From a virus, in IMG/VR virus record IMGVR_UViG_3300030099_006533: a stretch of DNA of 64,000 bases. One strand, written 5' to 3'. The position numbers were made by a program, and so were the translations under genes. The notes below the pieces were generated by a model. The model made no database searches and was not told the DNA's origin. It saw only the letters and a program-made list of their open reading frames with translations. Shown piece after piece: positions 30,157-30,356 of the stretch; within the stretch, counting starts at the first letter, position 1, and each line of letters starts with the position of its first letter.

Positions 30157-30166
30157 ACTACTTACC
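30157..30166 (+). promoter_or_regulatory. CTANTTA motif upstream of structured RNA
   Basis: ACTACTTACC ending 14 nt before the closing helix. Confidence 0.4.
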
Positions 30167-30179
30167 AAAGGACTAACAA

Positions 30180-30356
30180 GGGGCGGCTGCACCATACACG
30201 GAGTGACCGTTCACTGTCTCTGACGAACGGCATGTAAGAGGAAGACCCCCATCGCCTTTCGGGTATACCCGACGATGGCCGAACCCTCGACCCGCAAGGG
30301 AGTCAAAGCGAGACTAGGCCGAGTGCTCTGAGGAAGCATTCAATCGCAGCCGCCCC
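30180..30356 (+). ncRNA. unassigned multi-branched structured RNA candidate
   Basis: Perfect 11-bp closing helix GGGGCGGCTGC/GCAGCCGCCCC enclosing four hairpins, one with a GCAA tetraloop; no ORF; strand inferred from GNRA and G-U pairs. Confidence 0.65.

What the first reader, a model, noticed from the sequence alone, without database searches (positions are those of the whole stretch)
30157..30356. Unassigned ~177-nt multi-branched ncRNA in the accessory region
Seen: a perfect 11-bp helix (30180-30190/30346-30356) encloses CCGTTC/GAACGG (30207-30230), CCATCG-TCGGG-TATA-CCCGA-CGATGG (30249-30278), GAC-CC-GCAA-GG-GTC (30289-30304, GNRA loop) and GAGTGC/GCATTC (30321-30341). Two CTGANGA motifs (30220, 30328) lie within it, there is no ORF, and a CTANTTA motif sits just upstream. 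It does not match tRNA, tmRNA, SRP, RNase P or hammerhead layouts as far as I can judge. Inference: a novel phage small RNA, such as a decoy, ribozyme or protein sponge.
Basis: partly seen in the sequence, partly recalled or inferred. Interest (0 to 1): 0.7.

Follow-up and report, generated by a model that had tools for sequence, protein, structure and literature searches.

The report
New pseudoknotted RNA family, marine phages
The 177-base stretch is a real folded RNA gene, one member of a previously uncatalogued family found once or twice in every complete genome of a group of uncultured ~200-kb marine phages, and its job is still unknown.

Summary

The element is one of about 30 related RNAs (138-199 nt) in marine metagenome and IMG/VR phage contigs. 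All share one architecture:
- a long closing stem P1, with an unrelated sequence in each lineage;
- a small hairpin P4;
- hairpin P5 with a conserved YRARRA loop.

P2, the pseudoknot and P4 covary strongly: 93% of cells paired, 11 of 15 pairs changed on both sides, 0 of 500 shuffles as good. G-U pairs fix the RNA to the + strand.

No Rfam 15 family matches any member. Hammerhead is excluded, because one CUGANGA is not conserved.

Most copies sit 5-36 nt after a conserved ~112-aa early gene and before an early promoter. A second, divergent copy lies at 59711-59857, upstream of the tmRNA, an arrangement conserved in a distant complete genome. Another member abuts a tRNA.

Best reading: a stable RNA cut out of longer transcripts and acting in trans. 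Ribozyme and sensor readings stay open. No expression data could be obtained.

The parts
30180..30190 (+). P1 5' strand (closing stem, 11 bp)
   Evidence: Perfect complement of 30346-30356. In relatives P1 has unrelated sequences that stay complementary over 11-18 bp. L008 has C-G changed to U-A plus two G-U pairs, and L005 has one G-U.
30207..30230 (+). P2 hairpin: stem CCGUUC/GAACGG with 12-nt loop ACUGUCUCUGAC
   Evidence: 98% of cells paired over 27 sequences; 4 of 6 pairs changed on both sides.
30216..30220 (+). Pseudoknot 5' strand GUCUC, inside the P2 loop
   Evidence: Pairs with 30310-30314. In the family 5 of 6 pseudoknot pairs change on both sides, for example GUCACC/GGUGGC, GUCUAA/UUAGGC, UUCACA/GGUGAA and GCCAG/CUGGC.
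30239..30288 (+).
   Evidence: Two compensatory changes within the window's clade (L005, L008). It is replaced by other hairpins in L010 and L011 and is absent from the minimal members L091, L093, L072, L066 and L076.
30291..30300 (+). P4: CCC-GCAA-GGG hairpin
   Evidence: Present in nearly all members, with loops GCAA, GAAA, UUCG or AUGA; 84% of cells paired.
30301..30323 (+). Conserved junction: AGUCAAAGC, then pseudoknot 3' strand GAGAC (30310-14), then UAGGCCGAG
   Evidence: Family consensus is AGUKGAAAG, pseudoknot strand, U(A/G)GCGAG.
30321..30341 (+). P5 hairpin, with loop holding UGAGGA (30329-34) = family motif YRARRA
   Evidence: GCU/AGC becomes GUU/AAC in L007. In the other clade the loop is GGYRARRACR, closed by CGC/GCG, with a covarying outer stem: GGGU/ACCC, UGAAA/UUUCA, GAUGG/CCAUC.
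30346..30356 (+). P1 3' strand
   Evidence: See the P1 5' strand.
29803..30141 (+). Upstream 112-aa early gene; the RNA begins 38 nt after its stop codon
   Evidence: The same gene family ends 5-36 nt upstream of the RNA in 17 of 25 members examined. It has no Pfam or PHROG hit. The model has a generic ferredoxin-like fold.
29748..29776 (+). Sigma-70-like promoter that would drive the 112-aa gene and read into the RNA
   Evidence: TTGACT-17-GATAAT, 10 of 12 consensus positions. No terminator-like site lies between it and the RNA.
30361..30415 (+). Early-type promoter of the next gene (TT(G/T)ACA boxes, -35 at 30387-92, -10 at 30410-15), directly after P1
   Evidence: The motif recurs in many related loci. 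In the other clade the first box, CTTGACA, forms the outer 3' part of P1.
59711..59857 (+). Second, divergent copy of the family (type 2), about 325 nt upstream of the tmRNA
   Evidence: Model R2 gives 16.5 bits, E 0.0065 over 400 kb. By eye: P1 GUCGGUCG/CGACCGAC, P2 AGGUUC/GAACCU, pseudoknot GUUCGU/ACGAAC, P5 CGCA[GAGCGAGGAGU]UGCG. The same RNA and the same position before a tmRNA occur in a complete 203.9-kb IMG/VR genome, with covarying P1, P5 and inner stem.

Best explanation
The stretch 30180-30356 (+) encodes a member of an uncatalogued family of 138-199-nt RNAs. The family belongs to a lineage of uncultured marine phages with genomes of about 190-205 kb.

Shown:
- The fold is a long closing stem P1 that encloses P2, optional inserts, P4 and P5.
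- The P2 loop pairs with the segment between P4 and P5, forming a pseudoknot.
- This brings the conserved unpaired runs together: AGUKGAAAG, U(A/G)GCGAG and the YRARRA loop of P5.

Inferred:
- The RNA has no promoter of its own in most genomes. It is transcribed by read-through from the gene or RNA gene upstream.
- It is then trimmed back to the very stable P1 stem. This would yield a stable free RNA that acts in trans through its pseudoknotted core, by binding a host or phage factor.
- The partner is unknown. Because copies lie next to the tmRNA and a tRNA, a translation- or RNA-processing-related partner is my leading guess.

Odds: a real, selected RNA fold on the + strand, about 0.95. A stable trans-acting RNA rather than a cis element or a ribozyme, about 0.45.
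For: Fold and strand:
- The + strand folds with z -3.2; the - strand with z -1.7.
- G-U pairs in P1, P2 and the pseudoknot would be A-C mismatches on the other strand; one pseudoknot pair is U-G in 12 of 27 sequences.

Homologues:
- blastn finds seven close relatives.
- Models R1 and R2 and a motif scan find about 24 more distant ones.

Covariation:
- On 27 sequences, 93.1% of cells pair, against 77.3% in shuffles.
- 11 of 15 pairs change on both sides, and 0 of 500 shuffles reach any measure.
- Sliding the partner columns by one drops pairing to 46-53%.
- P1 differs completely between lineages yet stays complementary over 11-18 bp. For the 20 members where the anchors were placed correctly, 0 of 200 flank shuffles gave as good a helix.

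Distribution: 5 of 5 records searched have it, including the 4 complete genomes among them (two with direct terminal repeats), with 1-2 copies each.

No own promoter: the RNA starts 5-36 nt after the stop of the upstream gene in 17 of 25 members.

Neighbourhood of stable-RNA genes:
- The window's second copy and its counterpart in a distant complete genome both precede a tmRNA.
- Member L167a ends 34 nt before a tRNA on the same strand.

Downstream genes differ among members, which argues against a gene-specific cis-regulator.
Against: - There are no expression data of any kind, so the ends, stability and even transcription are inferred.
- In most genomes the RNA sits in the 3' UTR of one particular gene family. 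That fits a cis role for that mRNA as well as it fits my reading.
- In several members (L177, L020, L161, L111, L173) an ORF starts 20-40 nt after P1 with no promoter between them, which looks like a 5' leader.
- About 30 conserved unpaired nucleotides around a pseudoknot is more typical of an aptamer or a ribozyme core than of a protein-binding small RNA.
- No partner protein is identified. The neighbouring 112-aa protein is rich in Asp and Glu by inspection of its sequence, and its fold is uninformative.
Confidence: 0.45

Rival explanations
1. It is a new class of self-cleaving ribozyme that cuts polycistronic phage transcripts at gene boundaries.
For: It is a small pseudoknotted RNA with a compact conserved core. 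It lies on the coding strand between co-directional genes, in varied gene contexts, at 1-2 copies per genome, and in phages. By my own knowledge of the literature, this is the usual setting of twister, pistol, hatchet and hammerhead ribozymes.
Against: No Rfam ribozyme model matches at E up to 10 or up to 1 for other members. The hammerhead-like CUGANGA in the P2 loop is not conserved. A P1 of 11-26 bp is longer than such ribozymes usually need. No conserved candidate cleavage dinucleotide could be named.
Confidence: 0.2
2. It is a ligand-sensing or otherwise cis-acting regulatory RNA. It would control read-through into, or translation of, the downstream unit, or the fate of the upstream 112-aa gene mRNA.
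For: Its architecture, a closing P1 plus a hairpin loop paired to a junction, resembles junction-type aptamers such as SAM-I. In L177, L111, L020, L161 and L173 it lies 20-40 nt before a start codon. In L111 and L177 the P1 3' strand can pair with the ribosome-binding region (by eye). U-rich tracts follow P1 in L008 and L162.
Against: The downstream genes are unrelated to each other. In most members a complete promoter lies between the RNA and the next gene. No consistent terminator or anti-ribosome-binding platform exists, and the window's copy has no terminator-like site. Copies before a tmRNA and a tRNA have no ORF to regulate.
Confidence: 0.15
3. It is a structural boundary element of transcription units. 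It would serve as a processing site (RNase III-type, on the long P1) and a 3'-end protector for the upstream mRNA, with no function as a free RNA.
For: It sits at the end of a transcription unit, right before the next promoter, in most genomes. P1 reaches 15-18 contiguous bp, and about 26 bp with one mismatch in L091-type members. By my own knowledge, phage T7 uses RNase III hairpins between early genes.
Against: A protective hairpin would not need a covarying pseudoknot, a conserved junction or a conserved P5 loop held across very divergent phages. P1 is only 11 bp in the window's clade. Copies also occur next to a tmRNA and a tRNA rather than after mRNAs.
Confidence: 0.12
4. It is a DNA-level element (inverted-repeat mobile cassette, recombination site or origin) and the RNA fold is incidental.
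For: Presence is variable at an orthologous slot: L003, L004 and L006 lack it while the close relative L007 has it. In one clade the flanks form an inverted repeat with the promoter box, TGTCAAG...CTTGACA.
Against: G-U pairs are tolerated on one strand only. An internal pseudoknot and three internal helices covary. No transposase or integrase lies nearby. The repeat covaries as a pair even inside the box: GTCATG/CATGAC in L121.
Confidence: 0.03

Closest known systems
Phage T4 small stable RNAs rnaC (species 1, 139 nt) and rnaD (species 2, 119 nt)
   Same: Both are phage-encoded stable-RNA-sized genes of unknown function. They are co-directional with, and adjacent to, tRNA-type genes and have no promoter of their own. 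Family members here lie before a tmRNA (window 59711-59857; L190) and before a tRNA (L167a).
   Different: There is no sequence or structure relationship: model R2 finds nothing at rnaC or rnaD above 1.4 bits. The T4 RNAs have no known loop-to-junction pseudoknot. Most members here follow a protein gene in the early region.
Junction-type riboswitch aptamers with a loop-to-junction pseudoknot (SAM-I, Rfam RF00162)
   Same: Shared topology: a closing P1, a P2 hairpin whose loop pairs with the junction between the last two hairpins, and conserved junction nucleotides.
   Different: No Rfam hit for any member, no K-turn in P2, no common downstream gene and no expression platform.
phi29 packaging RNA (pRNA, 174 nt)
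   Same: Both are phage RNAs of about 170 nt with paired 5' and 3' ends and a branched body. Both have a covarying pairing that involves a hairpin loop. As with pRNA, covariation cannot say whether that pairing is within one molecule or between molecules.
   Different: No similarity in sequence. The phage type is unrelated (about 200-kb genomes). One of the paired segments here is a junction, not a second loop. There is no link to packaging genes.
Small self-cleaving ribozymes common in phage and marine metagenome DNA (hammerhead, twister, pistol, hatchet)
   Same: Similar size range, a pseudoknotted compact core, a coding-strand intergenic position, varied gene contexts and more than one copy per genome.
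   Different: No model matches. The hammerhead core motif is not conserved. Cleavage is untested.
Large orphan phage-associated RNAs GOLLD and ROOL (PMC12286853)
   Same: Both are orphan structured RNAs found in phages, often beside tRNA genes, with unknown function.
   Different: Those are about 580-800 nt and form multimeric cages. This family is 138-199 nt and matches neither Rfam model.

Membership tests
Hammerhead ribozyme | Conserved CUGANGA and GAAA core around a three-way junction with an NUH cleavage site | tested here: not met
   CUGACGA (30220) becomes CAAACGA, CAAATGA or CAAAGGA in L008, L010 and L011. No hammerhead model hit at E up to 10.
Any Rfam 15 family (4227 models) | Covariance-model score at or near the gathering threshold | tested here: not met
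   The window at gathering threshold gives only the tmRNA and tRNAs. The locus at E up to 10 gives only a 13-bit snoRNA chance hit inside the upstream ORF. Ten loci with other family members at E up to 1 give no hit on the RNA.
tRNA / tmRNA | Cloverleaf, or tRNA-like domain plus tag reading frame | tested here: not met
   ARAGORN finds 6 tRNAs and 1 tmRNA in the window and nothing at 30180-30356 or 59711-59857.
Intrinsic terminator | G+C-rich hairpin with a short loop, directly followed by a U run | tested here: not met
   No terminator-like site in 29500-31000. P1 encloses 155 nt and is followed by GCCCUUUAC. Only some relatives have a longer U run (L008, L162).
Riboswitch (generic) | 5'-leader position before a consistent set of genes, with an expression platform | tested here: not met
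   Downstream genes differ, and a promoter intervenes in most members. Ligand binding is not testable with these tools.
Self-cleaving ribozyme (generic) | Site-specific self-scission | not testable with these tools
   Needs an in vitro cleavage assay.
The new family described here | P1 closing stem; P2 (NNGUUC/GAACNN) with a 12-nt loop; pseudoknot from loop positions 4-9 to the 6 nt before U(A/G)G; P4; P5 with a YRARRA loop | tested here: met
   The window copy scores 207 bits with R1 and 92.5 bits with R2, but it was in both training alignments (A4, A6), so it matches by construction. What counts is that it shows every feature by eye. In the window's clade the pseudoknot is 5 bp rather than 6.
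T4 rnaC / rnaD | Homology to the T4 stable RNAs | tested here: not met
   An R2 search of T4 68000-76000 with filters off gives a best score of 1.4 bits at rnaC.

The most novel reading that the evidence does not exclude
The family is a new class of catalytic or ligand-binding RNA, either a self-cleaving ribozyme or a metabolite aptamer. Its active pocket would be formed by the P2-loop pseudoknot, the AGUKGAAAG / U(A/G)GCGAG junction and the YRARRA loop. Large marine phages would use it to process or tune their early and tRNA/tmRNA transcripts.
Probability: 0.3. Interest if true: 0.85.

Novelty: categorically new. Interest (0 to 1): 0.72.

Why it matters
New RNA classes of more than 100 nt with strong covariation support and a pseudoknotted conserved core are rare. 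Past examples have turned out to be riboswitches, ribozymes or parts of RNA-protein machines.

This one looks like a core gene of an abundant but uncultured lineage of large marine phages: it was in all four complete genomes searched. It has two paralogous forms, one of them fixed next to the phage tmRNA.

The work gives a defined, testable object: a consensus, boundaries and about 30 natural variants. These can go straight into cleavage assays, in-line probing, pull-downs or structure determination. They can also be used to mine Tara and GOV metatranscriptomes.

One caveat on novelty: a 2023 survey predicted about 10,000 unnamed candidate structured RNAs in IMG/VR (PMC10690425). I could not check whether this motif is among them, because no supplementary files were held.

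Tried and rejected
Tools that were not available:
- No whole genome is held for the window.

Searches that found nothing:
- INPHARED phages: no DNA match to the locus or to 8 kb around it, and no tblastn match to the 112-aa protein.
- The GroEL gene finds only relatives at 46% identity or less, so no cultured relative was identified.

Collection pattern scans:
- The clade-A motif and three type-2 motifs gave 0 hits in IMG/VR.
- A strict clade-B motif gave 0 hits in the 185,579 species genomes.
- These zeros are not evidence of absence. The type-2 pattern matches locus L190, which comes from an IMG/VR record, yet the collection scan missed it.
- The one productive scan returned about 10 chance hits in G+C-rich coding DNA along with 12 real ones.

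Ideas rejected:
- Rfam-based ideas: hammerhead, twister, SAM-I, THF, glmS, SRP, RNase P, Y RNA and cobalamin all give no hit.
- Retron, bridge-RNA or omega-RNA ideas: no reverse transcriptase, recombinase or nuclease family among 120 ORFs.
- The AGUC/GACU hairpin proposed by RNAalifold, in favour of the pseudoknot, which uses the same GAGAC and covaries.

Attempts that fell short:
- The 112-aa neighbour: its model (pLDDT 79.5) has only a generic ferredoxin-like fold. The top Foldseek row is a phage SAM lyase (E 0.01, TM 0.45) and the best VIA-align Z is 5.6, so nothing usable came of it.
- A formal pair count for P1 was not possible, because MAFFT does not align the unrelated P1 sequences. I used a helix search with shuffled-flank controls instead. 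That script mis-anchored 6 members and stopped before the last 6.
- The 63441-63588 candidate RNA noted by others is not a member of this family.

Full report
**1. The observation.**
- P1: an 11-bp perfect closing stem, 30180-90 with 30346-56.
- P2: CCGTTC/GAACGG.
- The central two-part hairpin, 30249-78.
- The small GCAA-capped hairpin.
- GAGTGC/GCATTC, with one G-U.

RNAfold on the + strand reproduces them at -75.5 kcal/mol. The z-score is -3.23 and none of 200 dinucleotide shuffles is as stable. The reverse strand is unremarkable, at z -1.72. Rfam 15 gives nothing at the locus even at E up to 10, and ARAGORN finds nothing there.

**2. What the window is.**
All genes run on the + strand. The ORFs include GroEL, IMP dehydrogenase, peptide deformylase, ClpP-like head protease, endolysin and an HNH endonuclease. 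There are also a tmRNA and six tRNAs. Relatives are IMG/VR and marine metagenome contigs. They include records rated complete at 190-204 kb, two of them with direct terminal repeats. No cultured phage is close. The window is therefore part of an uncultured marine phage of about 200 kb.

**3. Homologues.**
The upstream 112-aa protein has many marine relatives. Using it as a handle I fetched 160 loci.
- blastn with the intergenic region found the RNA in seven of them: L079, L009, L007, L005 and L008 at full length, and L010 and L011 with a different middle.
- A covariance model from these (R1) then found weak full-length hits immediately downstream of distant orthologues of the same gene, at 35-48% protein identity.
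- Read by eye, these are clearly the same RNA with almost no shared stem sequence.
- A motif scan of IMG/VR and a second model (R2) added more.
- The total is about 30 distinct members of 138-199 nt.

**4. The fold.**
All members share five elements.
- P1 is a long closing stem. Its sequence is unrelated between lineages, for example GGGGCGGCUGC, GCCCACGG, AUCCAGGUAGG, GGGUCGGUGAGAGAA and CUGAUCGGCUG, each with its exact partner. It is 11-18 contiguous bp, and longer if one mismatch is allowed. For 20 members, none of 200 flank shuffles gave an equally good helix (the script mis-anchored six others and then stopped).
- P2 is a 6-bp stem ending in UUC/GAA, with a 12-nt loop.
- A pseudoknot joins loop positions 4-9 to the six bases before a conserved U(A/G)G.
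- P4 is usually CCC-tetraloop-GGG, followed by AGUKGAAAG.
- P5 carries a conserved loop. It is GGYRARRACR closed by CGC/GCG in most members, and C-YGARGA in the window's clade.

The minimal members lack it.

**5. Covariation.**
On the 27-sequence MAFFT alignment A7, which was not fitted to any structure, the results for P2, the pseudoknot and P4 together are:

| Measure | Observed | Control |
|---|---|---|
| Cells paired | 93.1% | 77.3% in column shuffles |
| Pairs changed on both sides | 11 of 15 | 5.5 on average in shuffles |
| Shuffles reaching any of the five measures | 0 of 500 | - |
| Pairing with partners slid by one column | 46-53% | - |

A 23-sequence version gave the same picture. 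The pseudoknot alone has 5 of 6 pairs with double changes. Examples are GUCUCC/GGAGAC, GUCACC/GGUGGC, GUUGCC/GGCGGC, GUCUAA/UUAGGC, UUCACA/GGUGAA, GCCAG/CUGGC and GUCUUG/CGAGAC.

G-U pairs are frequent: one pseudoknot pair is U-G in 12 of 27 sequences. They would be A-C mismatches on the other strand, so the RNA is read from the + strand. The pseudoknot uses the same GAGAC as the AGUC/GACU hairpin that RNAalifold proposed. I prefer the pseudoknot because it covaries.

**6. The CUGANGA motifs and CTANTTA.**
- The first CUGANGA lies in the P2 loop downstream of the pseudoknot strand and is not conserved.
- The second is the local form of the family-wide P5 loop motif.
- Hammerhead membership therefore fails.
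- CTANTTA is not over-represented in the window. An identical 12-mer forms the end of the ORF at 32183-32386, so it is probably a relic of a gene end.

**7. Context.**
- In 17 of 25 members the RNA starts 5-36 nt after the stop codon of the 112-aa gene family, which leaves no room for a promoter of its own.
- It is usually followed at once by an early-type promoter with upstream TT(G/T)ACA boxes.
- In the larger clade the first box, CTTGACA, is the outer 3' part of P1, and a matching UGUCAAG sits at the 5' end. In L121 both sides changed together (GUCAUG/CAUGAC). Transcripts must therefore run through that box.
- The slot is mosaic. A zinc-ribbon ORF and a small SH3-like ORF are inserted in some genomes. 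Three close relatives (L003, L004, L006) have no RNA there.
- Downstream genes are unrelated to one another.
- In L177 the order is promoter, RNA, ORF.

**8. A second copy and the link to stable-RNA genes.**
R2 also hits window 59710-59829 (16.5 bits). By eye, 59711-59857 has all five elements, with a perfect 6-bp pseudoknot (GUUCGU/ACGAAC). It lies about 325 nt upstream of the tmRNA.

A complete 203.9-kb IMG/VR genome carries, besides its early-region copy, the same divergent type about 300 nt upstream of its tmRNA. There P1, P5 and an inner stem have changed on both sides, while the loop GAGCGAGGAG is kept.

Another contig has two copies, one of which ends 34 nt before a tRNA on the same strand. 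All five records searched, including the four rated complete, have one or two copies.

**9. Interpretation.**
The fold is real and selected, and the family is in no catalogue available to me.

For function, the facts point in different directions.
- The lack of a promoter of its own, the very stable P1, the core-gene status, the varied downstream genes and the copies beside tmRNA and tRNA genes favour a stable RNA released from longer transcripts and acting in trans. I put this at about 0.45.
- The compact conserved core and the scattered coding-strand intergenic positions fit a self-cleaving ribozyme (about 0.2).
- The leader-like position in some genomes and the junction-plus-pseudoknot architecture fit a sensor or other cis-regulator (about 0.15).
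- A processing or protective boundary element is possible (about 0.12) but would not need the core.
- A DNA-level element is unlikely (about 0.03).

The neighbouring protein gives no lead. It is rich in acidic residues by inspection, and its model has a generic ferredoxin-like fold.

**10. Limits.**
- No expression data were available.
- Collection pattern scans failed a positive control, so their zeros say nothing about distribution.
- P1 and the outer P5 stem were assessed by eye and by my own script, not by the pair-count tool.
- The second copy rests on a weak model score plus one syntenic relative.
- Whether the motif is among the 10,006 unnamed candidates of PMC10690425 could not be checked.

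Noticed in passing
window 59711-59857 (+): A second, divergent copy of the same RNA family lies about 325 nt upstream of the tmRNA (60183-60514). The same pairing of RNA and tmRNA occurs in a complete 203.9-kb IMG/VR genome (L190 about 1504-1657; tmRNA at 1962-2382). It overlaps a 67-aa ORF call (59730-59933) that is probably spurious.
   Followed up: partly
L167 (IMGVR_UViG_3300032087_002697), - strand, 124-275 and 1323-1492; tRNA at 5-89: One phage contig carries two family copies about 1 kb apart. The second copy ends 34 nt before a tRNA gene on the same strand.
   Followed up: partly
window 30361-30415 and about 12 other sites in 22700-36000; also many related loci: A repeated early-promoter module has TT(G/T)ACA direct-repeat boxes upstream of a -35/-10 pair. 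In the larger RNA clade the first box doubles as the outer 3' strand of P1.
   Followed up: partly
window 30000-38000: A G+C-rich island (56-60%, against 39-50% elsewhere in the window) begins at about the RNA. It contains an AAA_5 ATPase (34602-35726) and a DUF2201 metallopeptidase/VWA protein (35977-37254).
   Followed up: no
window 27455, 28743, 29340, 29515, 30640 and others: Many small ORFs begin with MKVGDLV or MNVGDLV. They form a large paralogous family of mini-proteins interleaved with the promoters. Members also flank the RNA in L020 and L161.
   Followed up: no
L003, L004, L006, L007, L009 downstream of the 112-aa gene: The slot between the 112-aa gene and the next promoter is mosaic. 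A CxxC...CxxC zinc-ribbon ORF and an SH3-like ORF come and go, and the RNA is absent from L003, L004 and L006. L007 has an extra 6-bp hairpin (GCGUCU/AGACGC) directly 5' of the RNA.
   Followed up: partly
window 29803-30141: The 112-aa protein, rich in Asp and Glu, has no Pfam or PHROG family. Its AlphaFold model (pLDDT 79.5) is ferredoxin-like. The top Foldseek row is a phage SAM lyase, but only at E 0.01 and TM 0.45, which is too weak to use.
   Followed up: partly
Viral contigs pattern scans: A pattern that matches locus L190, taken from an IMG/VR record, returned 0 hits in the IMG/VR collection scan. Negative scans of that collection are therefore unreliable.
   Followed up: yes
window 32374-32385 and 52429-52440: Exact copies of the 12-mer TTCAACTAYTTA, which precedes the RNA, occur at two other places. 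One forms the last codons of ORF 32183-32386 and the other lies in the gap before the 703-aa gene. Overall the motif is no more frequent than chance.
   Followed up: partly
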